A DNA stretch of 64,000 bases from Clostridia bacterium (GTDB lineage: Bacteria > Bacillota > Clostridia > Christensenellales > Aristaeellaceae): positions 47,961 to 111,960 of the forward strand of contig JAFVVG010000043.1 in assembly GCA_017502305.1 (NCBI GenBank), in the 5' to 3' direction. Numbering within the stretch: position 1 is the stretch's first letter; each line of letters opens with the position of its first letter. Under the pieces are notes generated by a model. That model saw only the letters and a list, made by a program, of their open reading frames with translations. It searched no databases and was not told where the DNA came from. Of this stretch, positions 3,246-59,344 are shown one piece after another. The position numbers and the translations under genes are program-made.

Positions 3246-3874
3246 CTGAAGCACACAAGCCCCAGAGAAAGAAATCCTGGATGTACGCTTTCCTCCGCGG
3301 CCTGGGCAGCGTGGCCTTCAAGACCATCCTGCCGGTGAAGTATCATGGCGCTGAACTGGTCAATGGGGAAGAGCCCTTCATCGTTATCGGCAACCATCAG
3401 TGCTGGATCGACCCTGTGGTGATGGCGGTGGCGACGAAGAAACGGCAGATGAGCATCCTGGGCAAGGCGGAGCTGGGCGCCGGCGGCAAGCTGACGAAGA
3501 TCCTGCAGCGCATGCACGTGGTGCTGGTGAACCGCCACAGCACCGACATGGAGGCCATGCGGGCCTGCATGAAGGTGGTCAGGGACGGGAATATCCTGGC
3601 GATTTTCCCCGAGGGTACCCGCCATCACAAAGGGCTGATGGAGGAACTGGAAAGCGGCGTGGCCATGATCGCCCTGCGTGCCGGCGTGCCGCTGATTCCC
3701 ATGCTGATCCCCACAAAAATGAAGTTCTTCCGCCGCAACGATTGCTATATTGGTCAGCCCATTGAGATGGCCGACCTGCGGGAGAAGGGCATCAGCAAGG
3801 ATACCTGCCAGGAGCTTCTGGGGCGCATTACCGCTGTGTATGCGGAGATGGCAAAGGAAGCGGAAGGAAAATAA
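3242..3874 (+). CDS. plsC: 1-acyl-sn-glycerol-3-phosphate acyltransferase
   Basis: HX4D motif (NHQCWIDP) and FPEGTR motif. ATGA overlap with the cmk stop. Confidence 0.85.
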   Translation: MTEAHKPQRKKSWMYAFLRGLGSVAFKTILPVKYHGAELVNGEEPFIVIGNHQCWIDPVVMAVATKKRQMSILGKAELGAGGKLTKILQRMHVVLVNRHSTDMEAMRACMKVVRDGNILAIFPEGTRHHKGLMEELESGVAMIALRAGVPLIPMLIPTKMKFFRRNDCYIGQPIEMADLREKGISKDTCQELLGRITAVYAEMAKEAEGK

Positions 3875-3979: not shown

Positions 3980-5947
3980 ATGCCCATTGAAGTGGCGGCT
4001 CACGCAGGCTTCTGCATGGGCGTTCGGCGCGCGGTGGAGGCTGCCTCCGCCGTAGCTGATTCAGGCAAACCCTCCTGCACGCTGGGGGAGCTGATCCATA
4101 ATCCCCAGGTGGTGGAGATGCTGCGCGGCAGAAATGTACCGCCAGTCTCCTCGGTGGAGGAGGCGGCAGGCCGGCAGGTGCTGATCCGCAGCCACGGTGT
4201 GGCGCCGGATGTGATCAGCGATCTGCGCTGCGCAGGGTGCGAGGTGCTGGACCTGACCTGCCCCTTTGTGGACAAGCTTCACCGCATCGTTGCCGAGGGA
4301 ACGGGGCCGGAATGCCCGGTGATCCTGGTGGGCGAGAAGGAGCACCCCGAGGTGCGCGGCACAGCGGGCTGGTCCAAGGGCGAGGTCTATGTGGTGGCTA
4401 CGCCTGAGGAGGCGGCTCAGCTGCCTGATCTTCCCAAAGCTCTGGCTGTGGCGCAGACGACTTTTCCGCCGGAGAGATGGGAGGCCATCACGCAGGTGCT
4501 GGAAAGCAGGATCGGTGAACTGGCAAAGCACAACACCATCTGCTCCGCTACCGAGACCCGCCAGCGCGAGGCCAAGGAGCTGGCCCAGCGCATGGACGCT
4601 ATGATCGTCATCGGCGGCAGAAACAGCGCCAACACACAAAAGCTCTACGCGGCCTGCAAAAGCAGATGTCCGCGGACAATCCTGGTAGAGTGCGCGGCGG
4701 AGATCCCGCCTGCCTTTGCAAATATTTATTCCGATAAAATTGGAATTACCGCCGGCGCGTCCACGCCCGACGGCTCACTTAAGGAGGTTGTAACCCGCAT
4801 GACTGACATTGAGAACAAAGACTTCATGGCCGAAATCGAAGCTACCCTGGTGAAGATTCGCCCCGGCCAGACCGTGACCGGCACCGTCGTTCAGGTGACT
4901 GAAGACGAAGTGTGCGTCAACATTGGCTACAAGGCCGATGGTCTGATCAAGCGCAGCGATCTGACCCAGCAGGATGTTCAGCTGGGTGACGAAATTGAGG
5001 TTGAGGTCGTTAAGGTGAACGACGGCGAGGGCAACGTCCTGCTGAGCCAGCGTAACATCGTGAACCGCAAGGCTTGGGAAGCTCTGATGGCCAAGTATGA
5101 GGCCGGCGAGTATGTTGAGGCTGTGGGCAAGGAAGCCGTCAAGGGCGGCCTGATTGCCGATGTGGAGGGCGTGCGTGCCTTCGTTCCCGCCAGCCAGCTG
5201 TCTCAGCGCTATGTTGAGAAGATCGCTGACTTCGTGGGCAAGGACATGAAGCTGAAGATCATCGAAGTGGACAAGCAGAAGAAGCGCATCGTTGCTTCCC
5301 GCAAGGCCGTGATGGCTGAAGAGTCCGCTGCCAAGAAGGCCGCTGCCTGGGAGAACCTGGAAGAGGGCATCGTGATCCACGGCATCGTCCGCCGCCTGAC
5401 CGATTTCGGCGCTTTCGTCGACGTTGGCGGCGTGGATGGCCTGATCCACATCACCGACCTGTCTTGGGGCCGCATCAAGCATCCCTCTGAGGTTGTGAAG
5501 CCCAACCAGGAAGTGGACGTGAAGATCCTGAGCCTGGACAAGGAGCGCGAGCGCATTCAGCTGGGCTACAAGCAGCTGCAGGCCCGCCCCTGGGACAACG
5601 CCACCGAGAAGTATCCCGAAGGCTCCATCGTTGAGGGCAAGGCTGTCCGCATCACCGAGTTTGGCGCTTTCGTTGAGCTGGAGCCCGGCCTGGACGGCCT
5701 GGTGCACATCTCCCAGTGCGCCCTGAACCGCGTGAACAAGGTCGAAGACGCCGTGAAGGTTGGCGAGATCGTCCGCGTGAAGGTGCTGTCTGTGGATCCC
5801 GAGAAGAAGCGCATCTCCCTGAGCATCCGTCAGGTGCTGGAAGAGGAAGCCTTCGAAGAGATCCCCGCTGAGGTGGAGTTCGAGCTGGTTGCCTCCGACG
5901 AGGCTCCCGTTGAGGAAGTCGCCGCTGAGGAAGCTCCCGAAGCTTAA
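3980..5947 (+). CDS. ispH: Bifunctional IspH (HMBPP reductase) / ribosomal protein S1-domain fusion
   Basis: N-terminal half has AHAGFCMGVRRA and HNPQVV, as in LytB/IspH. C-terminal half has four S1 OB repeats (GTVVQVTEDEVCVNIG, VEAVGKEAVKGGLIADV, GIVRRLTDFGAFVDV, GKAVRITEFGAFVEL). Confidence 0.9.
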   Translation: MPIEVAAHAGFCMGVRRAVEAASAVADSGKPSCTLGELIHNPQVVEMLRGRNVPPVSSVEEAAGRQVLIRSHGVAPDVISDLRCAGCEVLDLTCPFVDKLHRIVAEGTGPECPVILVGEKEHPEVRGTAGWSKGEVYVVATPEEAAQLPDLPKALAVAQTTFPPERWEAITQVLESRIGELAKHNTICSATETRQREAKELAQRMDAMIVIGGRNSANTQKLYAACKSRCPRTILVECAAEIPPAFANIYSDKIGITAGASTPDGSLKEVVTRMTDIENKDFMAEIEATLVKIRPGQTVTGTVVQVTEDEVCVNIGYKADGLIKRSDLTQQDVQLGDEIEVEVVKVNDGEGNVLLSQRNIVNRKAWEALMAKYEAGEYVEAVGKEAVKGGLIADVEGVRAFVPASQLSQRYVEKIADFVGKDMKLKIIEVDKQKKRIVASRKAVMAEESAAKKAAAWENLEEGIVIHGIVRRLTDFGAFVDVGGVDGLIHITDLSWGRIKHPSEVVKPNQEVDVKILSLDKERERIQLGYKQLQARPWDNATEKYPEGSIVEGKAVRITEFGAFVELEPGLDGLVHISQCALNRVNKVEDAVKVGEIVRVKVLSVDPEKKRISLSIRQVLEEEAFEEIPAEVEFELVASDEAPVEEVAAEEAPEA

Positions 5948-8480: not shown

Positions 8481-9866
8481 ATGAGCCATACCTATGAGAA
8501 ACTTTCCAGCAACAAGGCCAAGCTGACCTTCGTTATCCCTGCCGAGCAGTTTGACGAGGCCATGCAGAAGGCTTATCTGAAGAACCGCAGCCGCATCAAC
8601 GTTCCCGGCTTCCGCAAGGGCAAGGCCCCCCGCAGCCTGATCGAGCGTATGTACGGCGAAGCCATTTTCTATGACGACGCTCTGGAGATGGTCTTCCCCG
8701 ACGCCTATGATGCCGCCATCGCTGAATATGACCTGAAGCCCGTGGATCGCCCCGAAGTGAACGTGGACGAGATCGGCGCCGGCCAGGACCTGAAGTTCAC
8801 CTGCGAGGTGTTCGTCCGCCCCGATGTGGAGCTGGGCCAGTACAAGGGCCTGGAAGTGGAAATCACCAAGCAGACCGTGACCGAAGAAGAGATCAACGCC
8901 CGCATCGAGCAGGACCGCCAGAAGGCTGCCCGCACCATCGACGTTGACGACCGCGCCGTGGAAGAGGGCGACACCGTGAACCTGGACTATGCAGGCAGCG
9001 TTGACGGCGTGGCCTTCGCTGGCGGCACCGCCCAGGGCCAGACCCTGACCATCGGCTCCCACCAGTTCATCCCCGGCTTCGAGGAGCAGATGGTAGGCAT
9101 GGCCATCGGTGAGGAGAAGGACCTGAACGTGACCTTCCCCGAGCAGTACCACTCCGAGGAGCTGGCTGGCAAGGCCGCCGTGTTCCACGTGAAGGTCAAC
9201 GGCATCCAGAAGACTGAGATGCCCGAGCTGGACGACGACTTCGCCGCCGACGTCAGCGATTTCGATACCTTCGAGGCCTACAAGGCCAACATCGTGAAGG
9301 AGCTGGAAGAGCGCGCCGAGAAGAATAACGACGTGACCTTCGAGAACGCTCTGGTGGAAAAGGCTGTCGAGAATGCCACCATCGACGTGCCCCACGCCAT
9401 GATTCACGAGCAGCTGCACTACATGATGCGCGAAATGGAAATGCGTATGGCTTACCAGGGCCTGCGCATGGAGGATTACCTCAAGTACACCGGCCAGACC
9501 ATGGAGCAGCTGGAAGGCGCTTACCACGGCGAGGCTGAAAAGCGCGTCCGCATCGAGCTGACCCTGGAAGCCATCCGCAAGGCTGAGGCCATCGAGCCCA
9601 CTGAGGATGAGATCAAGGTGCAGATCGAGGAGCAGGCCAAGCGCATGGGCCAGGAGGTTGAGGCCTTCGAGAAGTCCCTCACCGACGAGCAGCGCGCTTA
9701 CCTGGCTGATTCCGCCGCCGTGCAGAAGGTCGTTGACCTGCTGAAGGCTGAAGGCAAGGCTGTGGAAAAGAAGGAAGAGGCCGCCGAGGAGAAGCCCGCT
9801 CCCAAGAAGAAGGCTGCCCCCAGGAAAAAGAAGGCCGAGCCCAAGGCTGAGGAAGCCGCCGAGTAA
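8481..9866 (+). CDS. tig: Trigger factor
   Basis: MSHTYEKLSSNKAKLTFVI and the ribosome-binding signature VPGFRKGKAP, a central FKBP-like region, and an acidic/lysine-rich tail. ATG lies 10 nt after AGGAGGG. Confidence 0.9.
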   Translation: MSHTYEKLSSNKAKLTFVIPAEQFDEAMQKAYLKNRSRINVPGFRKGKAPRSLIERMYGEAIFYDDALEMVFPDAYDAAIAEYDLKPVDRPEVNVDEIGAGQDLKFTCEVFVRPDVELGQYKGLEVEITKQTVTEEEINARIEQDRQKAARTIDVDDRAVEEGDTVNLDYAGSVDGVAFAGGTAQGQTLTIGSHQFIPGFEEQMVGMAIGEEKDLNVTFPEQYHSEELAGKAAVFHVKVNGIQKTEMPELDDDFAADVSDFDTFEAYKANIVKELEERAEKNNDVTFENALVEKAVENATIDVPHAMIHEQLHYMMREMEMRMAYQGLRMEDYLKYTGQTMEQLEGAYHGEAEKRVRIELTLEAIRKAEAIEPTEDEIKVQIEEQAKRMGQEVEAFEKSLTDEQRAYLADSAAVQKVVDLLKAEGKAVEKKEEAAEEKPAPKKKAAPRKKKAEPKAEEAAE

Positions 9867-10024
9867 GGCAACTGAATAGGCAACGATTGCGCGGGAGGTG
9901 GCCTCATGCGGTATATCCGTTTGTGCTGCCTCCCGCGATTCAAATTTTCCGGTATGGCACGGCTGATCCCTGCATAGAATAGAAGGACGGCCTGTGCGGC
10001 AAACCAATGAGGAGGTATGACGCA

Positions 10025-10615
10025 ATGACGCTTGTACCCATGGTCGTGGAGCAGACCAACCGCGGTGAACGCTCCTATGACATCTACTCCCGCCTGCTGA
10101 AGGACCGCATTGTGTTCCTTTCCGGCGAGATTGAGGACAACATGGCCAACCTGGTGGTGGCGCAGCTGCTCTTCCTGGAAATGGAAGACCCCGACGCCGA
10201 CATCAGCCTGTATATCAACAGCCCCGGCGGCTCCGTTACCGCGGGCATGGCGATTTATGACACCATGCAGTACATCAAGCCCCAGGTGCGCACCGTTTGC
10301 GTGGGCATGGCGGCTTCCATGGGCGCTTTCCTGCTCATGGCCGGCGAAAAGGGCAAGCGCCTGGCGCTCCCCAACGCCGAGGTGATGATCCACCAGCCTC
10401 TGGGCGGCGCTCAGGGCCAGGCCACCGACGTGGCCATCCGTGCTGAGTGGCTGCTCAAAACCAAAACCAAGATGACCAAGATGATGGCTGAAATGACCGG
10501 CCAGGACATCGAAAAGGTCAAGGCTGACGTGGAGCGCGATTACTTCGTGGACGCCGAAGAAGCCCTCAACTACGGCATCATCGACGAAATCTATCAGCCG
10601 CGCCAGAGGGGCTAA
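10025..10615 (+). CDS. clpP: ATP-dependent Clp protease proteolytic subunit
   Basis: [26 protein letters not shown], Ser site GMAASMGA, His site MIHQPLGG. The TAA stop (10613-10615) sits in the loop of a repeat hairpin. Confidence 0.95.
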
Positions 10616-10793
10616 GCCCCTCTGGACTCCCCACCAAAGGGGCTCTGCCCCTTTGGAAACCCTGCATAAGGGCGCTGCCCTTAAGAATCCCGCCAAAGGC
10701 CTTTCAGCCCTCTGGACTCCCTTTTTTCGGGGATGCTGCGGGGAACATTTCAGAAGGGGTCACGGCGCGAATACGGTCGCGCCGCGACGCGGG
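10603..10793 (-). repeat. Mosaic hairpin-array repeat, copy A1 (inverted orientation)
   Basis: Four tandem GGGC-NNN-GCCC hairpins at 10603-10625, 10634-10656, 10667-10683 and 10693-10715. These are followed by the GC palindrome module GGGGTCACGGCGCG-aatacggt-CGCGCCGCGACGCGGG (10756-10793), which is the reverse complement of the module in copies B, C and D. Confidence 0.85.
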
Positions 10794-10864: not shown

Positions 10865-10946
10865 AAGGGTGTCGAGAGGGCCGAAGGGCCCTTCGCGGGT
10901 TGTCAGGGCAGAGCCCTGACCGGGATCCTAAGGGCAGAGCCCTTAG
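10865..10946 (+). repeat. Mosaic hairpin-array repeat, copy A2 (core plus two hairpins)
   Basis: Core AAGGGTGTCGAGAGGGCCGAAGGGCCCTTCGCGGG (10865-10899) is identical to 51756-51790. It is followed by TCAGGGCAGAGCCCTGA and CTAAGGGCAGAGCCCTTAG. The last hairpin abuts the clpX RBS. Confidence 0.85.
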
Positions 10947-10956
10947 AGGAGGAACC

Positions 10957-12273
<1,317 letters not shown>

Positions 12274-17185: not shown

Positions 17186-17217
17186 AAAAATGCCATCCAA
17201 TAAAGGATGGCATTTTT
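17186..17217. terminator. Bidirectional terminator after engB
   Basis: AAAAATGCCATCC-aataaa-GGATGGCATTTTT. Confidence 0.8.
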
Positions 17218-17460
17218 GAATGCGAAGCAAAGACGGCGCGCCACATCGCGCCCCGTCTCCAATTGCCGCTCGCCCGCGTCGCGGCGCGCCCGTCGCGCGC
17301 CGTGACCCCTGCTTATATCCCACATGTATGACACACGTAAAGGGTGTCGAGAGGGCCGAATGGCCCTTCGCGGGATTCTTAAGGGCAGAGCCCTTAAGCG
17401 GGATCCCCAAGGGTAGCGCCCTTGGGCAGGGGAGTCCAGAGGGGACAGCGTCCCCTCTGG
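17218..17460 (+). repeat. Mosaic hairpin-array repeat, copy B
   Basis: GC module at 17273-17309 and core at 17340-17374 (one mismatch). Hairpins are CTTAAGGGCAGAGCCCTTAAG (17378-17398), CCAAGGGTAGCGCCCTTGG (17407-17425) and CCAGAGGGGACAGCGTCCCCTCTGG (17436-17460). The array ends 1 nt before the CAP-gene stop. Confidence 0.85.
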
Positions 17461-18225
17461 TTACCGGGCAAAGATCTGGGTGAGGTAGATGTAGCCCTGG
17501 GCGTCGTAGGCGATGCCGATGCCGGCTTTGGTCCAGGCGGTGGAGAGAATGTTGCGGCGGTGGTCTTCCGAGGACATGAAGGCGGCCTGCGCCTTGGTCA
17601 CGTTGGCGTGGTGGGCGATGTTCTCGCCGGCGCCGGCAAAGCTGTAGCCGAAACGGCGGAGCATATCGCGGACGTTGCCGTAGGTGGGGGACTCGTGGGC
17701 GAAATAACGGTTGTCGCGCATGTCCTGAGATTTGATGCGGGCAATGCGGGAAAGCTCGGGATCGAGGGTCAGGGCAGGGAGCCCGTTGGCGATTCTGTCG
17801 TTGCTTAGCAAATTCCATGCAGTTTGCTCTTGCGCTGTGATGGAATTAGTAGTATAATCATCACCCGATGAAGGAGCTTTTGTCGCTGTGGGTTTCACGG
17901 TGGGTTTGGCCGTGGGAATCGCCGTGGGTTTTGCTGTTGCCTGGGGTTTCTGGGTGGGAGCGATGGTCGCGGTGGGGGCGGCAGTTGCCACGGGAGTGGT
18001 AACAGCAGGCTCTTTTGTGGGGGTGGAAGGCCTGTTTGGCCATGTAGGCTGCTGATTTTCGTTGATTTCAGGGGTCGAAGTGGGAGAAACGGGTGTTTCG
18101 CAATTTGTTTGCTGACGGTACGGCCAGCCCCTGAACCCGAACTGGGAAGCGGGTGCTTCTGCCTGAGCAGAGGCGCTGAAAACCAGCGCGGCGGTCAGAA
18201 TGGTGCTTGCGTATCTCTTGAACAT
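17461..18225 (-). CDS. Secreted CAP/SCP (YkwD-like) domain protein with Pro/Thr-rich linker
   Basis: Signal peptide MFKRYASTILTAALVFSASAQA, a PT-rich linker, and a C-terminal CAP domain (SQDMRDNRYFAHESP...GENIAHH...HRRNIL). Confidence 0.8.
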   Translation of the reverse strand: MFKRYASTILTAALVFSASAQAEAPASQFGFRGWPYRQQTNCETPVSPTSTPEINENQQPTWPNRPSTPTKEPAVTTPVATAAPTATIAPTQKPQATAKPTAIPTAKPTVKPTATKAPSSGDDYTTNSITAQEQTAWNLLSNDRIANGLPALTLDPELSRIARIKSQDMRDNRYFAHESPTYGNVRDMLRRFGYSFAGAGENIAHHANVTKAQAAFMSSEDHRRNILSTAWTKAGIGIAYDAQGYIYLTQIFAR

Positions 18226-39808: not shown

Positions 39809-39930
39809 AAGCTTCTTCGGGGAAGGGTGTAAATCCCTACCGGCGGTACAGCCCGCGAACCAGAGTTTTCTCTGGCCGATCCGGTGTGATTCCGGAGCCG
39901 ACAGTATAGTCTGGATGAGAGAAGGAAGCC
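39809..39930 (+). promoter_or_regulatory. FMN riboswitch (RFN element)
   Basis: CTTCGGGGAAGGGTGTAAATCCCTACCGGCGGTACAGCCCGCGA...GGTGTGATTCCGGAGCCGACAGTATAGTCTGGATGAGAGAAGG matches the conserved RFN core. A riboflavin transporter gene lies downstream. Confidence 0.9.
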
Positions 39931-40015
39931 GGCGCGCTCGTCTTTTGGCGAGTGCCTCCGCCCCTGATAAGCGATCTGGCTTCAGGGGCGTGCGCATTTT
40001 TAAGGAGGCTTTGCC

Positions 40016-46629: not shown

Positions 46630-46703
46630 TCTGGGTGAGAAGATTCGAACTTCCGGCCTCTTGAACCCCATTCAAGCACGCTACCAAACTGCGCCACACC
46701 CAG
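46630..46703 (-). tRNA. tRNA-Pro (anticodon GGG)
   Basis: Manual cloverleaf of 74 nt. Acceptor CTGGGTG/CACCCAG, D arm GCGC-AGTTTGGTA-GCGT, anticodon stem CTTGA/TCAAG with loop AT-GGG-GT, and T arm GGAAG-TTCGAAT-CTTCT. CCA is not encoded. Confidence 0.85.
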
Positions 46704-48810: not shown

Positions 48811-48844
48811 AAAAGGCTCCGATACGAACGTATCGGAGCCTTTT
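48811..48844. terminator. Bidirectional terminator between convergent genes
   Basis: AAAAGGCTCCGATACG-aa-CGTATCGGAGCCTTTT: 16-bp perfect palindrome. Confidence 0.85.
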
Positions 48845-48845
48845 A

Positions 48846-49358
48846 TCATGGAGCGAAAGACACCTTGTATTCACCGTCGATCAGGATATGGGGGCAGCCG
48901 TGGCGCCGGCATTCAGCCAGGTTGTGGGCGTTGTCCCGCAGCAGTTCATCCATGGAAAGTTCAGGGTCGTCGCCCCGGTTCTCCACCACGCTGGCGTAGC
49001 GCCGGATGTCCGCAAAGTGGGTGCGGATGTAGCTTTCCGTCATGATCAGCCATACGCAGCGGATATTGCGCAGGTATTCATCCCCGAAGCTGTTGCGCCA
49101 ATCGTGAGGGATGTAGCAGCCCTCGATGATGAGGTTCTGCTCATTCTCGATGGCGGTCTTGGCCATTTCCCGGAGGATCGGCCAGAGGTAGGGTGTAAGC
49201 TGTGCATCATCGCTGGGGGTGAGGGTGGTGTGCCCGGCCCGGATCAGCCCCATCTTCAGGTGATCAATGGACAGATAAGGGTAACCGTATTGCTTCATCA
49301 ATCGATGAGCGAGGGCTGTTTTGCCAGTGTGGGTAGTGCCGGCGATGAGAATGACCAT
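48846..49358 (-). CDS. P-loop NTPase / putative small-molecule kinase
   Basis: 170 aa. Walker A is VILIAGTTHTGKTALA. No further family assignment is possible by eye. Confidence 0.5.
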   Translation of the reverse strand: MVILIAGTTHTGKTALAHRLMKQYGYPYLSIDHLKMGLIRAGHTTLTPSDDAQLTPYLWPILREMAKTAIENEQNLIIEGCYIPHDWRNSFGDEYLRNIRCVWLIMTESYIRTHFADIRRYASVVENRGDDPELSMDELLRDNAHNLAECRRHGCPHILIDGEYKVSFAP

Positions 49359-49388
49359 GGGAAACCTCCGGGGAAAATTGAAATCAGG

Positions 49389-49591
49389 AATTTGGAATGC
49401 GGAATGGAGCGTGTGGGACGGTAAAGTGGCGCGTTGAGCAAGGGGCAGAACCGCTCCCTCTGACCTCGTGAGGGAGGTTTAGTTGCTTTTCCCGGGTCGT
49501 AGCGCGATCGTATTCGCGCTGTGCCCCCTGCTCGTAGATTACCATGCAGTGCTATCTCCCAAATGGGATTCTTAAAGGGCGCCCCCCTTTA
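49389..49591 (+). repeat. Mosaic hairpin-array repeat, copy D (degenerate)
   Basis: Left end AATTTGGAATGCGGAATGGAG matches copy C. GC module is CCCGGGTCGTAGCGCG-atcgtatt-CGCGCTGTGCCCCC (49491-49528). A GGGATTCTTAAAGGG tail carries a single hairpin TAAAGGG-cgccc-CCCTTTA (49573-49591), which contains the rodA stop. Confidence 0.75.
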
Positions 49592-50794: not shown

Positions 50795-51599
50795 GACGTT
50801 TGACCTCCTTGAGCTTGGGGGCAAAGAGCCGGCGGAAGAAGCCGGGCTTCACGGCACCATAGGAAGGGAAATCGGTGGAGAGCCCCACCATGCGCCGGGC
50901 GATACGCTCCATGGCCTCATGGGCTTCGCACGCCACATCCATGACAGTCATGTGCTTGAGCAATGTGCGGTAGACCATGGGGTCCTCGGGAATCTCGCCC
51001 AGGAGTTCCACGTCGAGGGTCTGGGCCACGGTGGAGGCGGTGTACATCTCGCCGGCCTGGATGAGCTGGGCATCCAGCCGGTTCACGATGAGCTGGGGGC
51101 GGGGAAGGCTCTTCTCCTGCATGAGGGCCACCACTCGCTCGGCGTTGCGGATGCACACGTCATCGGGGGTGCATACAACGATGGTCTTGTCCACCAGCTC
51201 GTTCATCAGGCCGCGGAGGCTGCGCTCGATACCGGCGGGGCAATCGATGATAATCTGATCGTTGGTTTCCTTCAAAAGCAGCAGAATGCGGCGGAAGGCC
51301 TTGCGGTCCAGCGCCTTGGCCCGGGCAAACTGGGCGGCGGGCAGGAGCGACAGGTTGGGCACATCCGCCGGGCTGATCAGCGCCTGGGGCAGGCGGCAAT
51401 CCTTGTTGGCCACGTCCACCAGGTCGTACACCACACGGTCAGCCAGGCCCAGAATGGCATCCTGGTCACGCAGACCGATATCAGCGTCCACAATGCAGGT
51501 CTTCTGCCCGCGCTTGGCCAGGGCAACGCCCAAAGCGGAAGCGATGGTAGACTTGCCCACGCCGCCCTTGCCGGACGCGATCATCCATACAGTACCCAT
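50784..51599 (-). CDS. minD: Septum site-determining ATPase MinD
   Basis: Deviant Walker A SGKGGVGKST and DADIGLRDQD. Alignable with E. coli MinD throughout. The C-terminal amphipathic membrane-targeting helix is GFFRRLFAPKLKEV. Confidence 0.9.
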   Translation of the reverse strand: MGTVWMIASGKGGVGKSTIASALGVALAKRGQKTCIVDADIGLRDQDAILGLADRVVYDLVDVANKDCRLPQALISPADVPNLSLLPAAQFARAKALDRKAFRRILLLLKETNDQIIIDCPAGIERSLRGLMNELVDKTIVVCTPDDVCIRNAERVVALMQEKSLPRPQLIVNRLDAQLIQAGEMYTASTVAQTLDVELLGEIPEDPMVYRTLLKHMTVMDVACEAHEAMERIARRMVGLSTDFPSYGAVKPGFFRRLFAPKLKEVKRLDC

Positions 51600-51616
51600 G
51601 AAATCACCTCAGAGGA

Positions 51617-51900
51617 AATTTGGAATGATGAATTGAGTATGTGAGCCGGGCGAACAACGTTCGTCCCAACATTTTATGTGCGACTGTACCGCGTCGCGGC
51701 GCTCCCGTTGAGCGCCGTGACCCCTTCTTGGCAGTTAAGGGTATGCCTTCCCCGAAAGGGTGTCGAGAGGGCCGAAGGGCCCTTCGCGGGATTCTTAAGG
51801 GCAGAGCCCTTAAGCGGGTTGTCAGGGCAGCGCCCTGACCGGGGTGCAGGGGCAGCGCCCCTTGCTCAGGGGATTCCTAAGGGGGCGAAGCCCCCTTAGG
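51617..51900 (+). repeat. Mosaic hairpin-array repeat, copy C (most complete)
   Basis: Left end AATTTGGAATG, GC module at 51688-51724, and core at 51756-51790. Four hairpins lie at 51794-51814, 51822-51838, 51847-51864 and 51876-51900. The last one contains the mrdA stop codon. Confidence 0.85.
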
Positions 51901-54457
51901 GCGCCAGGCTGTTGCCGGAGGGGAGAACGTAATCGGTGGTACGGAGGGTCTTTTGGTCCATGTACCACTGGATGAAGTCGCGGGCGGCAGGGGAAGCATA
52001 GCCGCCGGAATAGCCGTTGGGGATGAAGACCGCGATGGCGATCTCCGGGTTTTCGTAGGGGGCAAAGATCACGAACCAGGCGTTGTTTTCCAGGTCGATC
52101 TTGGTAACCTGGGCGGTACCTGTTTTAGCGGCGATCTCGTCCTGATACTGGAAGTTGCGGAAGTGCTTCTTGGCGGTGCCGGTATCGTCGGTAACGCCCT
52201 TCATGCCGCGGCGGATCAGGGGCAGGTATTCATCGGCCTTGTCCAGGCGGTGGATGAGCTTCGGCTCCCGCTGGGTGAGGATCTCGCCCTCGGGAGAGGT
52301 GATGGAATCGATGATGGAAACGTTGTAGAGATAGCCGTTGTTGGCCACGGCGCAGACGTAGCGGGCCGCGGCAATGGGGGTGATCACCGTGACGGACTGG
52401 CCGATGCCGGTCAGTATGGTTTGCGCGCCACCCCACTTGATATCGTTCATGTAGTTGTAGGTGTCGCCGATGACGGCCTGCAGGTAAACCATCTCTTTGG
52501 TCATGTTGAGTTCTTCCATGAGAATGGTGCGCATGTTGTCCAGCCATTCGGATTCGGGGTAATTCACAGCCATGTCCATCAGGCGCTTGGCACACACGGA
52601 AAGGCGTTCGTCGTCGTACTCCATGTTGCGGGAGGCGCCGCAGGCCTTCAGGTGCTTCTTGATGGAGTTGAAAACGATGATGGGCCGGGAGGTATCCTGG
52701 CTGGCTTCGTTCATGGCCTTGGTGGTGTCGTAGAGGGTGTTCTGCGAGCCCACCACGCTGCGGACCTCGCCGGGAAGGTCGATGCCCGTGCGGGAGGTGA
52801 GGCCGAACAGGGACGCATAGCGGTAGAGGCGCTCTTCGCCCAGGCGGGAGCCGCACTCGTAGAAGAAATAGTTGCAGGAGTTGGTCAGGCCCTCCACGAT
52901 GGTCTGGTTCATGTGCTCCGTGCCCACGCTGCGCAGGGGGATCCAGCAGCGGGGAGCGGTGTTGGTATCGTTGTTGTAGCGGGTGTAGTAGCCCATGTCG
53001 TGGATGCGCTCGTTGATTTGCAGTTCACCCTCGGCCAGGGCGCCGAAGCCGGTGACCATTTTGAAAATGGAGCCGGGGGTGCCGCGGGCGTGGATGCCGT
53101 AGTTCAGCAGCAGGTTGCGCTCGTCCGCCAGAATGGCGATGGCGTCCTTGCCGCCGGCAACCAGGGCGTTCAGGTCGTAGGTGGGATAGTTGGCCATGGC
53201 CAGCACACGGTCCTGCATGTCGAGCACGATCATGCAGCCATGCTCGGCCAGGGCCATGGGGTATTTCTCCCAGTCGCGGTTGGCGATGTCGGCTTTGTTG
53301 GCCTCCAGCCAGGAATCACTGACCATGAGCTTTTCCTGCTCGTCGCGGACGGTGTTCACGTTATCGGCAATGGCACGCTCAGCCACCTGCTGATAGCTGG
53401 CGATGAGGGTCAGCTTCACGTTGTTGCCGTCCTGGGGCGCCACGTAGTCCAGCTCGCGGACCACCTTGGCACGCTGGTCACGCTCCACCAGGCGGCTGCC
53501 CTTGCGCAGGGAGGAATTCTGGGTGAGCCAGTCCTCCATGGAGGACTCGATGCCGTCGCGGCCGATGGTATCGTTGTAGGAATAGCCCTTGGCCTGCAGC
53601 TCCGCCCACTTGGACTGGCTGGGAATAGCGCCGGTATAGCCGATGATCTGGCTGGCCAGGGTGGAGCGGGGATAGACACGCTTGGTGCCCACGGAGATCT
53701 CCATGCCCGCCAGGGACATGGACTTGGTTTCTACTTCGATAACGGTCTCGTAGCGGACGTCTTTGGCGATGACGATGGGCTGGGAGTTGAACACGTTCAT
53801 CTGCATTTCGGAAAAGACCGCCATGACCTTGAGCATGGTCTCTTCGTCCACCATGATGACGTCCACGGGGGCGTATTCGCGGCTGTTGTCGTAGTCCAGC
53901 AGGGCCTGACGCTCCTCCTCGGTGGTGGCCAAACGGTAGGTATCCCGGAGCTTCTTGATGCAGTCGGCGGCGGTGGGGTAGCGGGTGGCGGTGACATAGT
54001 TGTTGCTGCGCCACTGCTTTTCACGCTTGGCCAGCACGGTTTCGCTGACGCCGGAGCCGAAGTTGAACTCCCACTCGCCGGTTTCCTCGTTGCGCTGGAT
54101 CACATAATCAACGGCCAGCTCGCCGCCGTTTTTCTCGATGATGTCGATGGTATCGATAATGGACTGGGAGAAGCTCAGGTAGGTGGCGCGGCTGGTGCTG
54201 GAGCCATCCTTGTAGAAGGTGACGTTGTAGATCAATTCGTCCTCTGCCAGAATAACTGAATCCGCGTCGGTGATGTTGCCGCGCTTGCCGCGAAGGGCAA
54301 TGGGCTTGGTGCGGGTGCTTTCGGCCTTGGTGACGTATTCCTCGGAGTTGTTCAGCTGCAGGCGCACAAGGCCCGAAGCCAGATAACCGAACATAACAAG
54401 AAGAATCGCGATAAAGGCCAGATAACGGCCCCGCATGCCCTGGGGCATTTTGTTCAT
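51896..54457 (-). CDS. mrdA: Penicillin-binding protein 2 (elongasome transpeptidase), unusually long
   Basis: 853 aa. SxxK (GSIFK), SxN (SCN) and KTG (KTGTAQ) motifs. ATG lies after AAAGGAGG. Sits in the mre operon after mreD. Confidence 0.85.
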   Translation of the reverse strand: MNKMPQGMRGRYLAFIAILLVMFGYLASGLVRLQLNNSEEYVTKAESTRTKPIALRGKRGNITDADSVILAEDELIYNVTFYKDGSSTSRATYLSFSQSIIDTIDIIEKNGGELAVDYVIQRNEETGEWEFNFGSGVSETVLAKREKQWRSNNYVTATRYPTAADCIKKLRDTYRLATTEEERQALLDYDNSREYAPVDVIMVDEETMLKVMAVFSEMQMNVFNSQPIVIAKDVRYETVIEVETKSMSLAGMEISVGTKRVYPRSTLASQIIGYTGAIPSQSKWAELQAKGYSYNDTIGRDGIESSMEDWLTQNSSLRKGSRLVERDQRAKVVRELDYVAPQDGNNVKLTLIASYQQVAERAIADNVNTVRDEQEKLMVSDSWLEANKADIANRDWEKYPMALAEHGCMIVLDMQDRVLAMANYPTYDLNALVAGGKDAIAILADERNLLLNYGIHARGTPGSIFKMVTGFGALAEGELQINERIHDMGYYTRYNNDTNTAPRCWIPLRSVGTEHMNQTIVEGLTNSCNYFFYECGSRLGEERLYRYASLFGLTSRTGIDLPGEVRSVVGSQNTLYDTTKAMNEASQDTSRPIIVFNSIKKHLKACGASRNMEYDDERLSVCAKRLMDMAVNYPESEWLDNMRTILMEELNMTKEMVYLQAVIGDTYNYMNDIKWGGAQTILTGIGQSVTVITPIAAARYVCAVANNGYLYNVSIIDSITSPEGEILTQREPKLIHRLDKADEYLPLIRRGMKGVTDDTGTAKKHFRNFQYQDEIAAKTGTAQVTKIDLENNAWFVIFAPYENPEIAIAVFIPNGYSGGYASPAARDFIQWYMDQKTLRTTDYVLPSGNSLAP

Positions 54458-55132: not shown

Positions 55133-56611
55133 TTAATCCTCCTCGTAGGTCATGTCCTCGGGGGACAGGGTGATGAAGGGCGTGGGAGAAGGCGTGGGCG
55201 TGGGAGAGGGCGTGGGGGTGGGTTCGTTGCTGAAGACCTGATACTCATACACCGGGCCGGCAATGGTGGGCGCGGGGGTAGCGGTGGGTTCAGGCGTGGG
55301 GGTAGGCGTGGGCGTAGCGGTGGGCAGGGGCGTCATTTCCGGATTGGGGGTGGGCGTCTCGCCCCACACGCTGGTGCTGCCGATGCGCAGCGTGGGCATG
55401 GGCCGGGCGGTGGTCAGGGGCACAAACTCGGCATACATGGATGCTTCGCGGCCCTGCACAGCTTCCGCTGCGGGCTTGTAGCGCAGAACGATCACATATT
55501 CGATGTGCTCAAAATCCGCGGAGGGCTCCACCACGATGTACTGCTTGTTGGCGTCCATGCCGCGGGTGGATTCGCGCACGGTGCCGATCGGGATGCCCTT
55601 GGGGAAGGACATACCCACGCCGGAGGTGACCACAATATCGCCGGGGCGGGGCAGGTGATCGTCGGGCAGGTAGTACATGCGGCACATGGGCCGGCCGTCG
55701 ATGCCCAGGGTGCCGCGGACAGTGCCCTGGTCGCGGCTGGACTGGATCAGGCCGGCGATGGAGGCTTCGCTGTCGATAATGGTACGGACCTGGGATTTGG
55801 TTTCGGTGACGTTCTCGGTATAGCCGACCAGGGCGCCGGAAATGGTGACGGCCATGTAGTTCTCGATGCCGTCGCGGCTGCCGCGGTTGATGGTGAAGGT
55901 GGAGAAGTAATTGCCGTCGCCCTTGCCGATGACGCCGCAGGCGATGGGGTTCATGTTTTCGTTGACGGAGATCTCGTCGTACATGTTGGCAAACTGGGAA
56001 AGCTGCTTGACATATTCATCTGCCATCATGGCCTGGTAGACCAGCTGCTCGTTTTCGGCGCGGAGCTTGTTGTATTCCGCCTCCAGGTTGGCACGGAGCT
56101 TCAGCGTGCGCAGATAACCGGCGAAGCTCTCGGTAATGGAGGAGAAAACGCTTTGCACAGGGGTCACGATCTTTGCCACAAAGCTTTCGGGCAGGCCTAG
56201 GAAGGCAGGCGCGTCCGGGATGACCCGGAAGGCCAGCATGATGACGGTGAGACCGATAATGATAATGGATATAGCCGTCAGCACCACCTTGCGCAATCCG
56301 CCGGGGAGCTCCTTGCGCTGGCGCTTCTCCTCGGCCTGGAGGCGGGAGGAGGTACGCTGCTTTTTCTTCATGCGGCCGACAAAGGTGGCGTTTTCCTGCT
56401 CCTCCTCGATGGCGTCGCGCTCGATCTGCAATTTGCGCAGGGCCTTCTCGGGGGTATCGGAGGTATCGTCATCCTGGTCGGAGATGGGCTCCTCGGGCTT
56501 GCCGGTGGGCAGGTCCCGGGTGATGCTGTCCAGGTCGTCGAACTTGAAATCGTCATAAGTGGGCAGCAGGGGCTGTTCCTCCTGCTGGTTACGGCGGTCT
56601 TTTCGTGCCAT
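55133..56611 (-). CDS. mreC: Rod shape-determining protein MreC with N-terminal charged extension and Pro/Thr-rich tail
   Basis: TM helix, a coiled coil (LRANLEAEYNKLRAENEQL), and the MreC beta-barrel region (GDIVVTSGVGMSFPKGIPIGTV). The tail is PTPTPTPEPTATPAPT...PTPSPTPTPSPTP. Confidence 0.85.
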   Translation of the reverse strand: MARKDRRNQQEEQPLLPTYDDFKFDDLDSITRDLPTGKPEEPISDQDDDTSDTPEKALRKLQIERDAIEEEQENATFVGRMKKKQRTSSRLQAEEKRQRKELPGGLRKVVLTAISIIIIGLTVIMLAFRVIPDAPAFLGLPESFVAKIVTPVQSVFSSITESFAGYLRTLKLRANLEAEYNKLRAENEQLVYQAMMADEYVKQLSQFANMYDEISVNENMNPIACGVIGKGDGNYFSTFTINRGSRDGIENYMAVTISGALVGYTENVTETKSQVRTIIDSEASIAGLIQSSRDQGTVRGTLGIDGRPMCRMYYLPDDHLPRPGDIVVTSGVGMSFPKGIPIGTVRESTRGMDANKQYIVVEPSADFEHIEYVIVLRYKPAAEAVQGREASMYAEFVPLTTARPMPTLRIGSTSVWGETPTPNPEMTPLPTATPTPTPTPEPTATPAPTIAGPVYEYQVFSNEPTPTPSPTPTPSPTPFITLSPEDMTYEED

Positions 56612-59229: not shown

Positions 59230-59242
59230 CGCCCTGGGGCCT

Positions 59243-59269
59243 CCCGGAAATGGCAGAGCCATTTCCGGG
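59243..59269 (+). terminator. Strong hairpin after the DUF1540 gene (no U-tract)
   Basis: CCCGGAAATGGC-aga-GCCATTTCCGGG: 12-bp perfect stem. Confidence 0.45.
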
Positions 59270-59344
59270 AATGCTCATTCCGTTGCCGCAGGCTGCGGTC
59301 CGCCGGTGTCCTCTGAAAATGTTCGCGCGAGATGAGGTGAGGTT

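What the first reader, a model, noticed from the sequence alone, without database searches (positions are those of the whole stretch)
51617..51900. Family of mosaic intergenic hairpin-array repeats (5 copies at 4 loci in 64 kb)
A composite element recurs at 10603-10793 (inverted), 10865-10946, 17218-17460, 49389-49591 and 51617-51900. Its modules are as follows. (i) A left end AATTTGGAATG(N2)GAAT(T/G)GAG, shared by copies C and D and weakly by B. (ii) A GC palindrome module CGCGTCGCGGCGC-N7-9-GCGCCGTGACCCC. (iii) A 35-nt core AAGGGTGTCGAGAGGGCCGAAGGGCCCTTCGCGGG, identical at 10865 and 51756 with one mismatch at 17340. (iv) A tail of 1-4 tandem short hairpins, all built on GGGC-NNN-GCCC but with different outer stems (CTTAAG, TCAG/CTGA, CCAAG/CTTGG, CCAGAG/CTCTGG, CCTAAG/CTTAGG). 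Every copy is intergenic and no transposase is nearby. The architecture recalls REP/BIME or MITE-like elements, but I do not recognise the sequence as a described family. In one frame it translates to [19 protein letters not shown], which will seed spurious hypothetical proteins.
Basis: seen in the sequence. Interest (0 to 1): 0.7.

Follow-up and report, generated by a model that had tools for sequence, protein, structure and literature searches.

The report
Mosaic hairpin-array repeats between genes
These are real copies of an undescribed family of selfish-looking, hairpin-rich repeat DNA (like the REP/BIME or BOX repeats of other bacteria) that fills spacers between housekeeping genes in one group of uncultured gut Clostridia; it is interesting to mobile-DNA specialists but otherwise ordinary.

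Summary
The 25-nt core occurs three times in the window (0 expected by chance). A diverged inverted copy, four GC-hairpin modules and 13 short hairpin units all lie at the four stated loci and nowhere else in the 64 kb.

The same ordered mosaic recurs in five uncultured ruminant-gut Clostridia genomes and in several metagenome assemblies. In full-length relatives the order is: heptamer tandem, a canonical GTAG-tagged REP on the opposite strand, module X, GC hairpin, core hairpin, then a head-to-tail array of hairpin units.

The element is dispensable and unstable. The clpP-clpX spacer is 29-90 nt and empty in species with 90-91% ClpX identity. It is 250-484 nt and differently composed in closer relatives. 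Arrays differ between strains that are 99% identical.

Nothing in Rfam matches. There are no terminal inverted repeats and no U-tracts, and no transposase lies in about 330 kb of lineage DNA. The GTAG-REP module belongs to a widespread REP class whose tyrosine transposases (RAYTs) carry that REP in frame.

Best reading: a new REP/BIME- or BOX-like mosaic repeat family that sits in 3' UTRs and intercistronic spacers and often overlaps stop codons. How it spreads is inferred, not shown.

The parts
10603..10625 (-). Locus A (clpP-clpX spacer), inverted half. Tail hairpin unit CCAGAGGGGC-TAA-GCCCCTCTGG. The clpP stop codon (10613-10615) is its loop, and the last ClpP codons (QRG) are its 5' arm.
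   Evidence: Relatives end ClpP with SK* or K* instead.
10634..10656 (-). Locus A, inverted tail unit CCAAAGGGGC-TCT-GCCCCTTTGG.
   Evidence: 36.2 bits on the - strand
10665..10685 (-). Locus A, inverted tail unit, slightly decayed (CATAAGGGC-GCT-GCCCTTAAG). It is a perfect hairpin in the closely related contig L021.
10689..10725 (-). Locus A, inverted and decayed core variant B. Reverse complement: AAAAGGGAGTCCAGAGGGCTGAAAGGCCTTTGGCGGG.
   Evidence: (I1, I2)
10756..10793 (-). Locus A, GC hairpin module, inverted.
   Evidence: (I3, I10)
10865..10899 (+). Locus A, direct half: core variant A.
10902..10946 (+). Locus A, two direct tail units (GTCAGGGC-AGA at 10902-10920; CTAAGGGC-AGA at 10928-10946). 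They run into the clpX ribosome-binding site (GAGGAGG), with the ATG at 10957.
17218..17260 (+). Locus B (engB / CAP-domain gene, convergent). Decayed left end plus GTAG-REP remnant, directly after the bidirectional terminator at 17186-17217.
   Evidence: The orthologous L024 copy has intact heptamers and an intact GTAG-REP.
17273..17309 (+). Locus B, GC hairpin module.
17340..17374 (+). Locus B, core variant A (loop GAAT).
17378..17460 (+). Locus B, three tail units (17378-17398, 17406-17426, 17436-17460). The last abuts the stop codon of the minus-strand CAP-domain gene (17461-17463).
49387..49417 (+). Locus C (RodA / AAA_33 kinase-like gene, both on the minus strand). Left end GGAATTTGGAATGCGGAATGGAGCGTGTGGG, next to the ribosome-binding site of the downstream gene (start at 49358).
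49442..49482 (+). Locus C, remnant of module X (GGCAGAACC...CTCCCTC...GAGGGAGG).
49491..49528 (+). Locus C, diverged GC hairpin module. The stem is kept through compensatory changes.
   Evidence: (I3)
49565..49591 (+). Locus C, single tail unit with its GGGATT linker. The RodA stop codon (49589-49591) is the end of its 3' arm.
   Evidence: (16 bits)
51614..51645 (+). Locus D (PBP2 / MinD, both on the minus strand). Left end GGAAATTTGGAATGATGAATTGAGTATGTGAG, next to the MinD ribosome-binding site (start at 51599).
51648..51671 (-). Locus D, decayed GTAG-type REP. The bottom strand reads TGTT-GGGACGAAC-GTT-GTTCGCCC.
51688..51724 (+). Locus D, GC hairpin module.
51756..51790 (+). Locus D, core variant A.
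51794..51900 (+). Locus D, four tail units (51794-51814, 51821-51839, 51846-51865 with one bulge, 51876-51900). The PBP2 stop codon (51896-51898) lies in the 3' arm of the last unit.

Best explanation
The five copies belong to a lineage-restricted family of mosaic, palindrome-rich interspersed repeats. They work like the REP/BIME elements of proteobacteria or the BOX elements of streptococci.

Structure. The ancestral composite is about 370-470 nt and has a fixed module order:
1. a tandem of heptamers;
2. one canonical GTAG-tagged REP on the opposite strand;
3. module X;
4. a 12-bp GC hairpin;
5. a linker;
6. a 'core' hairpin (GGGCC-GAAN-GGCCC);
7. a head-to-tail array of 1-4 units of about 30 nt, each made of a G-rich linker, an 8-12 bp perfect palindrome and an AGA/AGC loop.
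The window holds truncated and partly decayed versions.

What is shown:
- The elements are non-coding and dispensable.
- They lie inside transcription units (3' UTRs and intercistronic spacers).
- The array end sits against, or over, the upstream stop codon.
- They change quickly by unit gain or loss, deletion between repeated units, and replacement of whole arrays.

What is inferred:
- They spread as selfish or commensal DNA. The GTAG-REP part is probably handled on single-stranded DNA by a REP-associated tyrosine transposase (RAYT) of the class that carries this REP in frame.
- The arrays probably grow and shrink by slippage, unequal recombination or palindrome-templated repair.
- Once transcribed, the stable hairpins would protect the upstream cistron from 3' exonucleases and damp read-through. 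I take this as a side effect, not the reason the elements exist.
For: Real, multi-copy and lineage-wide:
- 3 exact cores in the window against 0 expected.
- 15 exact-core loci in 5 MAGs of ruminant-gut Clostridia, with the same module order.
- Short-read contigs break inside the element (L018-L020 start 119-143 nt upstream of minD).

Dispensable and unstable. The clpP-clpX spacer varies as follows:
- 29 nt in L149 (ClpX 90% identical) and 90 nt in L026 (91%). No family hairpin occurs in the 31 kb held from these two.
- 341 nt in the window.
- 250 nt in L022, which has a deletion between CCCTCTGGACTCCC direct repeats.
- 424-484 nt in the species at about 94% (L024, L025, L148, L150-L155), with different right halves and arrays.
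- L024 and L025 are 98.8-99.6% identical in flanking genes, yet their arrays align at only 55%.

Hairpins are the conserved feature:
- GC module: 17 distinct copies, 98% of cells paired, 5 pairs with changes on both sides, 0/500 shuffles as good.
- 80 perfect units fall into discrete linker+stem subfamilies shared across species. Loops are AGA 27, AGC 19, AAA 6, GAA 5 once oriented, so the units are asymmetric and arranged head-to-tail.

REP link:
- Full-length copies carry GTAG-GGGCGATC-TGC-GATCGCCC. This meets the published REP definition (PMC6006769).
- The same REP stem type occurs in at least 120 metagenome contigs. It lies in frame inside Y1 transposase genes (VGAIIDRP), including Clostridia MAG proteins (P0121) and a Firmicute contig of 60.5% GC (L147).

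Inside transcription units:
- Genuine A/T-flanked terminators lie beyond the elements (17186-17217, 48811-48844).
- The terminal unit lies -6 to 0 nt from the upstream stop codon in most of about 14 cases.

Not selected as RNA structure on short time scales:
- Between the window and L021, substitutions in the stems are uncompensated.
Against: - No RAYT or other transposase was found in the window or in about 330 kb of DNA from the lineage, by tblastn or by a family HMM. No RAYT carrying the lineage-specific REP loop (VGAICDRP) was found.
- The arrayed units, the core and the GC module lack a GT[AG]G tag. They are arranged head-to-tail rather than in the alternating orientation typical of BIMEs.
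- The window's species has only decayed GTAG-REPs while its tail units are sharp. The two may therefore be maintained by different processes.
- Genome-wide copy number could not be counted.
- No transcript data exist, so the 3' UTR effects are inferred from E. coli REP and pneumococcal BOX work (10.64898/2026.03.23.713779; PMC3049150).
- Orientation is biased with respect to transcription: tails face an upstream stop codon in 13 of 18 core-A copies. This could also mean selection for an RNA-level role.
Confidence: 0.75

Rival explanations
1. The arrays are primarily selected cis-regulatory RNA elements. They would act as 3' UTR stabilisers, U-less ('I-shaped') terminators or attenuators, or devices at the stop codon that stall ribosomes. 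They would be recruited at each locus to tune expression within operons such as clpP-clpX and pbp2-minD-rodA.
For: - The terminal hairpin lies within -6 to 0 nt of the upstream stop codon in most cases.
- Orientation is biased relative to transcription: 13 of 18.
- Both strands fold far better than shuffles (z -5.4 and -3.5).
- The GC hairpin shows compensatory changes.
- E. coli REPs act as dual terminator/stabiliser elements (10.64898/2026.03.23.713779).
Against: - The same operon junction works with a 29-nt or 90-nt spacer in sister species.
- Arrays differ in number and identity between 99%-identical strains.
- Stem mutations between close relatives are not compensated.
- No hairpin is followed by a U-tract, and the organism uses ordinary A/T-flanked terminators elsewhere, including just beyond locus B.
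- The invariant G.T of the GC module is an A.C mismatch in the usual mRNA sense.
Confidence: 0.15
2. The composites are MITEs: deletion derivatives of an insertion sequence, bounded by terminal inverted repeats, moved in trans by that IS's transposase, and creating target-site duplications.
For: - Size of 200-470 nt, multi-copy, intergenic and highly structured.
- The fixed module order suggests copying as one unit.
- A second small insert (about 130-165 nt) shows presence/absence between near-identical strains, so small mobile DNA is active in the lineage.
Against: - No terminal inverted repeats at the ends of full-length composites.
- GC-rich rather than AT-rich.
- No target-site duplication can be recognised where filled and empty sites can be compared.
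- No IS or transposase in the DNA available.
Confidence: 0.06
3. Each composite is a stand-alone non-coding RNA gene (for example a structured sRNA or a transposon-derived guide-RNA scaffold), or it encodes small proteins.
For: - Strong predicted structure.
- Conserved 25-35-nt core across species.
- ORFs have been called inside the elements by annotation pipelines.
Against: - No Rfam family matches, even at E up to 10.
- No promoter-like site in or next to the elements.
- Modules are freely lost, truncated or inverted.
- The window cores lack the ATG seen in relatives and have no ribosome-binding site. Reading frames are not conserved between copies.
Confidence: 0.03

Closest known systems
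REP / BIME elements with RAYT (TnpA_REP) transposases (E. coli, Pseudomonas, Stenotrophomonas; GTAG super-family of Di Nocera 2013, PMC3733652)
   Same: - Short GC-rich palindromes with 2-5-nt loops and sub-families that differ by complementary stem changes.
- Clustered with other conserved motifs into mosaics, in extragenic positions mostly downstream of genes.
- Location and number vary between strains.
- One module in full-length copies is a textbook GTAG-REP (tag 0 nt from an 8-bp stem, 3-nt loop).
   Different: - The units that make up the finding (tail units, core, GC module) have no GT[AG]G tag.
- They are arranged strictly head-to-tail instead of as inverted dimers.
- The composite has a fixed seven-module order.
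- The host is a Clostridia lineage, whereas the surveys I read list none in Firmicutes.
- A cognate RAYT has not been located.
BOX elements of Streptococcus pneumoniae / S. suis (boxA-(boxB)n-boxC; Croucher 2011, PMC3049150)
   Same: - A Firmicute modular composite in which a variable tandem array of one module lies between fixed end modules.
- Size varies between strains by module gain and loss.
- Co-transcribed with neighbouring genes, predicted to fold into stem-loops, and gives rise to spurious CDSs.
   Different: - BOX has terminal inverted repeats and makes target-site duplications. Neither is seen here.
- boxB modules are near-identical copies, whereas here the array is built of several distinct hairpin sub-families.
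- Homology is unlikely on my judgement (GC-rich here, pneumococcal genome about 40% GC), but no sequence comparison with BOX was run.
RAYT subclass with REPs inserted in frame in the transposase gene (subclass 2.4 of Quentin 2018, PMC6006769)
   Same: The GTAG-GGGCGNNC-NNN-GNNCGCCC REP of the composite is of the type that these genes carry in frame. The motifs VGA[TIS]I[GDA]RP and GRPMVAPT are translated REPs.
   Different: This concerns only one module, which is decayed in the window. No such gene was found in the lineage's DNA available here.
Intrinsic / 'I-shaped' terminators and repeated terminator motifs of high-GC bacteria (for example the TRIT motif of M. tuberculosis; recalled from my own knowledge, not checked here)
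   Same: GC-rich perfect hairpins directly after stop codons, without a U-tract, repeated at many gene ends.
   Different: Here they come in arrays with other modules. They occur inside operons upstream of ribosome-binding sites. They are absent from the same junctions in sister species, and ordinary U-tract terminators follow them.

Membership tests
Canonical REP (GTAG/GTGG-tagged; Quentin 2018, Di Nocera 2013) | GT[AG]G tetranucleotide 0-2 nt 5' of a hairpin with a 7-20 bp stem and a 2-5 nt loop. | tested here: not met
   - Tail units, core and GC module have 5' flanks GGGATT, GGAGT, GGGGT, GGGTT or GGGTTT, or a paired CGTC. None has GT[AG]G.
- The feature is met only by a separate module, GTAG-GGGCGATC-TGC-GATCGCCC, in relatives.
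- The window has only decayed versions of that module (51648-51671, 17218-17260).
Canonical REP | A cognate RAYT (Y1 transposase, PF01797) in the same genome, usually flanked by the REPs. | tested here: inconclusive
   - None in the window or in about 330 kb of lineage DNA (tblastn; family HMM).
- No VGAICDRP-bearing homologue was retrieved.
- The REP class does have RAYTs in other Clostridia.
Canonical REP | High copy number in extragenic space. | tested here: inconclusive
   - 4 loci in 64 kb.
- 15 exact-core loci in 5 draft MAGs, up to 6 per MAG.
- Contig breaks inside the elements mean that drafts under-count.
- No closed genome was available.
BIME / REPIN | REPs paired in inverted (alternating) orientation with conserved linker motifs. 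| tested here: not met
   Arrays are head-to-tail throughout (loops and linkers are co-oriented). Only locus A has two half-composites in inverted orientation (I1-I3). The mosaic of extra conserved motifs is present.
CGTC-tagged REPs (Di Nocera 2013) | Unpaired CGTC tag, 8-9 bp stem starting with A-T pairs, 4-5 nt loop, CCA-like tail. | tested here: not met
   The GC module does begin CGTC. However, GTC pairs with GAC as part of a 12-bp all-G/C-rich stem, and the tail is CCCC.
MITE | Terminal inverted repeats. | tested here: not met
   No inverted repeat joins the two ends of L024 16440-16810, L008 4120-4500 or window 51600-51905.
MITE | Target-site duplication; parental IS with matching ends. 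| tested here: inconclusive
   Filled and empty clpP-clpX sites are too diverged to define junctions. No IS was seen in the available DNA.
BOX elements | Sequence homology to boxA/boxB/boxC, plus terminal inverted repeats and target-site duplication. | not tested
   No BOX sequences were compared. The lack of terminal inverted repeats argues against membership. Only the modular logic is shared (PMC3049150).
Any Rfam family | Covariance-model score at or above the family's gathering score. | tested here: not met
   The window at gathering threshold gives only an FMN riboswitch and a tRNA. E-value scans of locus D, of L024 16330-16820 and of L024 9500-10010 give only chance-level hits.
Rho-independent terminator | GC-rich hairpin followed directly by a U-tract. 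| tested here: not met
   No tail unit, core or GC module is flagged. The true terminators are at 17186-17217 and 48811-48844.

The most novel reading that the evidence does not exclude
The head-to-tail hairpin arrays may be built by an active process that is not yet known. It could be a second HUH/Y1-type enzyme with a tag other than GT[AG]G. It could also be palindrome-templated synthesis. Either way it would deposit or regenerate perfect palindromic units, in one polarity, at gene ends, and sometimes rewrite the stop codon and the last residues of essential proteins. That would make this a REP-like mobile unit of a new type in Firmicutes. It would be maintained independently of the GTAG-REP/RAYT pair that travels in the same mosaic.
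Probability: 0.15. Interest if true: 0.65.

Novelty: new variant of a known kind. Interest (0 to 1): 0.4.

Why it matters
**REP biology in Firmicutes.** REP/BIME biology rests almost entirely on proteobacteria, and the REP surveys I read list no family of this kind in Firmicutes. A structured, fast-evolving mosaic family in gut Clostridia would extend that biology.

**A natural comparison.** The mosaic offers a tagged REP and untagged palindromic units side by side in one element.

**Practical value.** It explains recurrent contig breaks and spurious 'hypothetical proteins' in MAGs of this lineage. The hypervariable arrays could serve as strain-typing markers.

**Altered gene ends.** The arrays overlap the stop codons of clpP, pbp2 and rodA and abut the clpX ribosome-binding site. 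They may therefore change C-termini and expression between strains without touching the rest of the coding sequences.

Tried and rejected
- **Rfam.** Gathering threshold on the window, and E-value level on three element regions. Nothing found.
- **Exact look-ups of ClpP with two start codons**. Not on record. MinD and the ClpX homologues worked instead.
- **RAYT hunt.** In hindsight the loop should have been fixed to TGC. Two protein searches found no VGAICDRP variant. tblastn and a home-built RAYT HMM on all held DNA found none in the lineage. One high-GC candidate (P0162/L147) proved to be another organism without the composite.
- **Pfam scan of 111 neighbouring ORFs through an alignment id**. 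Uninformative, because only families shared by several members are listed.
- **Replication-strand bias.** 12 of 24 copies co-oriented with local GC skew, so none.
- **Strand choice from folding energy.** Top and bottom strands fold equally well as DNA and as RNA, so the conserved G.T does not identify the active strand.
- **Terminal inverted repeats**. None.
- **Viral contigs.** The core is absent. The TGC-loop GTAG-REP occurs once, in an unrelated 57.6% GC contig.
- **Literature string searches for the motifs**. Only chance primer matches.
- **Rejected on anatomy.** CRISPR is rejected because units are 27-33 nt apart with 6-10-nt linkers and no unique spacers. Integron attC is rejected because the neighbours are housekeeping genes and there is no integrase.
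Full report

Yes.

- Core: the 35-nt core AAGGGTGTCGAGAGGGCCGAA(G/T)GGCCCTTCGCGGG lies at 10865-10899, 17340-17374 and 51756-51790. Its 25-nt centre gives three hits against 0.00 expected in 100 dinucleotide shuffles.
- Inverted copy: the repeat finder pairs 10650-10724 with 17339-17413 and with 51755-51823 as inverted repeats (83-84% complementary). It also pairs the GC modules.
- Hairpins: a census of perfect hairpins (stem at least 8 bp, loop 3-5) finds 15 in the window against 4.1 +/- 2.0 in shuffles. Twelve of them lie in the roughly 1.1 kb of the four loci.
- No other copies: a covariance model of the hairpin unit, run without filters over both strands, finds significant matches only at the four loci. 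The one exception is an unrelated hairpin at 59247-59269.

**2. Genomic setting**

Pfam on the flanking ORFs gives these contexts:

| Locus | Upstream and downstream genes | Arrangement |
|---|---|---|
| A | clpP then clpX | same strand |
| B | engB and a CAP-domain gene | convergent |
| C | RodA then an AAA_33 kinase-like gene | both minus strand |
| D | PBP2 then MinD | both minus strand |

- These are housekeeping operons, and no transposase is nearby.
- 'Intergenic' is only nearly right. The stop codons of clpP, RodA and PBP2 lie inside the terminal hairpin, and that of the CAP gene abuts it.
- ClpP ends QRG* in the window, and those residues and the stop are encoded by the hairpin. Relatives end SK* or K*.
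- Ordinary bidirectional terminators with A/T tracts exist at 17186-17217 and 48811-48844. They lie beyond the elements. The elements therefore sit inside transcription units, in 3' UTRs or between cistrons.

**3. Relatives**

The counts were RGIG9056 x6, RGIG8955 x5, SIG355 x3, RGIG4032 x1 and RGIG2065 x1.

Printing them in register shows the same order of modules everywhere. It also reveals what the window copies have lost. The full composite (for example L024 16440-16800, the orthologue of window locus B, and L008 4120-4490) reads:

1. a tandem of heptamers (GAATGCG / GAATTCG / ATGAATA)n followed by GAATTGAGTGTGTGG;
2. on the opposite strand, GTAG-GGGCGATC-TGC-GATCGCCC;
3. module X (…GGCAGAACCAC…CAGCCGCAAGCGGCTG…CCTCCCTCGGGGAGGGAGG);
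4. the GC hairpin;
5. a CTCGGAGATC…CCCCGA linker;
6. the core;
7. the hairpin array.

The window keeps only decayed versions of module 2 (51648-51671, 17218-17260) and of module X (49442-49482).

**4. Anatomy of the hairpins**

*GC module.* Seventeen distinct copies align almost without gaps. On a 12-bp helix, 98% of cells pair and five pairs show changes on both sides. No shuffle or slid register comes close. One G.T is invariant in 17 of 17 copies.

*Tail units.* Eighty perfect hairpins in lineage DNA fall into discrete sub-families, each with its own 5' linker:

- GGGATT-CTTAAGGGC
- GGGTT-GTCAGGGC
- GGGGT-GCAGGGGC
- GGAGT-CCAGAGG(G)C
- GGGGTTT-CCAAAGGGGC
- GGGATT-CCTAAGGGC

Once oriented by the linker, the loops are AGA (27), AGC (19), AAA (6) and GAA (5). 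The units are therefore asymmetric and always arranged head-to-tail.

*Core.* The core is the first unit of the array. Its variants carry the same linkers and perfect 8-10 bp stems:

- GGGAGT-CCAGAGGGCC-GAAC-GGCCCTTTGG
- GGGATT-CTTAAGGGCC-GAAG-GGCCCTTAAG
- GGGGT-CCAGGGCC-GAAC-GGCCCTGG

The common variant A is an imperfect member with one bulged A.

*Strand.* Both strands of locus D fold far better than shuffles as RNA (z -5.4 and -3.5). Both strands of single modules fold equally well as DNA. Energy does not say which strand matters.

**5. Dispensable and unstable**

ClpX homologues were used to fetch the orthologous clpP-clpX spacer from a graded series.

| Contig | ClpX identity to window | Spacer | Content |
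|---|---|---|---|
| L149 | 90% | 29 nt | none; no family hairpin in 20 kb |
| L026 | 91% | 90 nt | none; no family hairpin in 11 kb |
| window | - | 341 nt | inverted half plus direct core-A and tails |
| L021 | 97% | 339 nt | as the window |
| L022 | 97% | 250 nt | lacks two units and the inverted core (deletion between CCCTCTGGACTCCC direct repeats) |
| L024 / L148 | 94% / 93% | 463 nt | tails CCAGAGGC + CCAAAGGGGC |
| L025 and L154-L155 (RGIG9056) | 94% | 484 nt (L025), 483 nt (L154-L155) | tails GCAGGGAC + GTCAGGGC + CCTAAGGGC |
| L150-L153 (RGIG4032 species) | 94% | 424 nt | one complete inverted composite, ending in the GTAG-REP |

- The unit model confirms that L149 and L026 hold no family hairpin.
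- L024 and L025 are 98.8-99.6% identical in tig, clpP and clpX, and 96.5% identical in the spacer up to the core. Their arrays align at only 55%.
- Between the window and L021 (about 6% DNA divergence), the few substitutions in stems simply break pairs. None is compensated.
- Short-read contigs break inside the element.

Together this is the behaviour of repeat DNA that is born perfect, spreads, and decays. It is not the behaviour of a structure held by purifying selection at each site.

**6. The REP connection**

Module 2 meets the published operational definition of a REP: GT[AG]G 0-2 nt 5' of a fully paired 7-20 bp stem with a 2-5 nt loop (PMC6006769).

Their GC content ranged from 0.36 to 0.68. 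This REP stem type is therefore widespread.
- In four of those contigs the REP lies in frame inside a Y1 transposase gene.
- A protein search gave 1384 relatives at E up to 1e-10, some named 'transposase [Clostridia bacterium]' with PF01797.
- Almost all of the listed relatives contain VGA[T/I/S]I[G/D/A]RP, the translated REP. The relatives inspected also carry GRPMVAPT, which L147 shows to be a second REP in the opposite orientation.
- In L147, a 60.5% GC Firmicute contig, a third REP supplies the stop codon from its GTAG tag.
- This matches 'subclass 2.4' of Quentin et al. 2018.

The limits of this link are as follows:

- I could not find such a gene for this lineage. None appears in about 330 kb of its DNA by tblastn or by a family HMM. 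None with the lineage's TGC loop (VGAICDRP) appears among the proteins retrieved.
- The units that form the finding proper (tail, core, GC module) have no GT[AG]G tag.
- The unit model finds no tail-type unit in 100 of the GTAG-REP metagenome contigs. These modules are lineage-specific additions to a broader REP mosaic.
- Heptamer tandems next to GTAG-type REPs do recur in unrelated human-gut contigs.

**7. Mechanism**

*Shown.* The family is non-coding, dispensable, multi-copy and modular. Its most conserved property is hairpin formation. It sits inside transcription units with the array end at the upstream stop codon: offsets are -6 to 0 nt in most of about 14 cases, and tails face an upstream stop in 13 of 18 core-A copies and a downstream ribosome-binding site in 5 of 18. 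It changes by unit loss, by rearrangement and by replacement of arrays.

*Inferred.*

- It spreads like REP/BIME elements.
- The GTAG-REP is the likely handle for a RAYT acting on single-stranded DNA.
- Slippage, unequal recombination or palindrome-templated repair reshapes the arrays.
- The transcribed hairpins have REP-like side effects: protection of the upstream message from 3' exonucleases and partial attenuation of read-through. Both were shown for E. coli REP325 (10.64898/2026.03.23.713779) and proposed for pneumococcal BOX (PMC3049150).
- I give the overall reading 0.75 and the RAYT step about 0.35.

*Rivals.*

- A primarily selected regulatory RNA (0.15). This is weakened by the empty sister sites, the uncompensated decay and the lack of U-tracts.
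- A MITE (0.06). It has no terminal inverted repeats, is GC-rich and has no IS.
- An independent RNA or protein gene (0.03). There is no Rfam match and no promoter-like site, and frames and modules are not conserved.

No replication-strand bias was found (12 of 24).

**8. Comparison and novelty**

The family works like BIMEs and like BOX elements, but it is a member of neither.

- The defining REP tag is absent from the arrayed units.
- The arrangement is head-to-tail, which Di Nocera et al. report as rare for REPs.
- The terminal inverted repeats of BOX and MITEs are absent.
- Neither Rfam nor the REP surveys I read (PMC3733652; PMC12306157, which lists a few Bacillota genomes in a table but does not mention Clostridia) describes it.

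I class it as a new variant of a known kind, of moderate interest (0.4).

The least conventional reading still open is that the untagged units are made or moved by their own, unknown machinery, independently of the GTAG-REP/RAYT pair. Three facts keep it open:

- the window's species has sharp tail units but only decayed GTAG-REPs;
- arrays turn over between 99%-identical strains;
- terminal units repeatedly take over stop codons.

I give that reading 0.15.

Noticed in passing
window 39809-39931 (+); window 46630-46703 (-): An FMN riboswitch (113.6 bits) lies upstream of an ORF that starts near 40016. A tRNA gene is also present. These are the only Rfam matches at gathering threshold in the window.
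   Followed up: no
window 59242-59270; L005 7093-7121; L004 6544-6564; L005 7008-7028: A second small hairpin family shares the AGA loop. The form is TCCCNGAAATGGC-AGA-GCCATTTCNGGGA, with cousins GTTTYCGGC-TCT-GCCGRAAAC. In the window it sits just after a plus-strand stop codon. It scores 17 bits with the tail-unit model.
   Followed up: partly
L024 ~9805-9935 (also L025, L148, L154); L001 ~3340-3470; L024 11375-11540 vs L148: A purine-rich insert of about 130 nt (…GAGCGATGCGAGCGCCGCCAGTGGCGGAAGCAGCG…) splits the core hairpin at the same position at two different loci. A related segment of about 160 nt is present in the clpX-lonB spacer of L024 but absent from the 99%-identical L148. This looks like a second small mobile element. 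It either targets the core or has spread together with it.
   Followed up: partly
L147 4001-4483; L037 2675-3172; L053; L093; L114; proteins P0121-P0240: A large Y1 transposase (RAYT) family was found, with 1384 proteins at E up to 1e-10. Its 'conserved motifs' VGA[TIS]I[GDA]RP and GRPMVAPT are two GTAG-REPs translated in frame in opposite orientations. The stem residues co-vary (T..G, I..D, S..A). In L147 a third REP supplies the stop codon TAG from its GTAG tag.
   Followed up: yes
L083 ~300-340; L092 ~5740-5780; L128 ~3530-3560: Heptamer tandems (ATGAATA)n lie directly beside GTAG-type REP hairpins in unrelated human-gut metagenome contigs. The heptamer+REP association is therefore wider than this lineage.
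   Followed up: no
L154 13608-15173; L155; L156: In RGIG9056 a MobA/MobL relaxase gene lies downstream of engB, where the window and L024 have the CAP-domain gene. This may be the edge of an integrated mobilisable element.
   Followed up: no
window 1-64000: GC skew is positive in every 4-kb bin. The coding strand nevertheless switches from mostly plus to mostly minus near 46.7 kb, so the cell-shape gene block (pbp2-minD-rodA) would be transcribed head-on to replication.
   Followed up: no
window 55179-55333: Tandem 12-nt GGCGTGGG-type repeats lie inside a long ORF region (repeat family D5). Their nature was not examined.
   Followed up: no
L021 7545-7760, 7789-7917; L018 2198-2359; L148 9674-9961: Public gene calls of 42-95 aa with no Pfam hit lie entirely inside the repeat elements.
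   Followed up: yes
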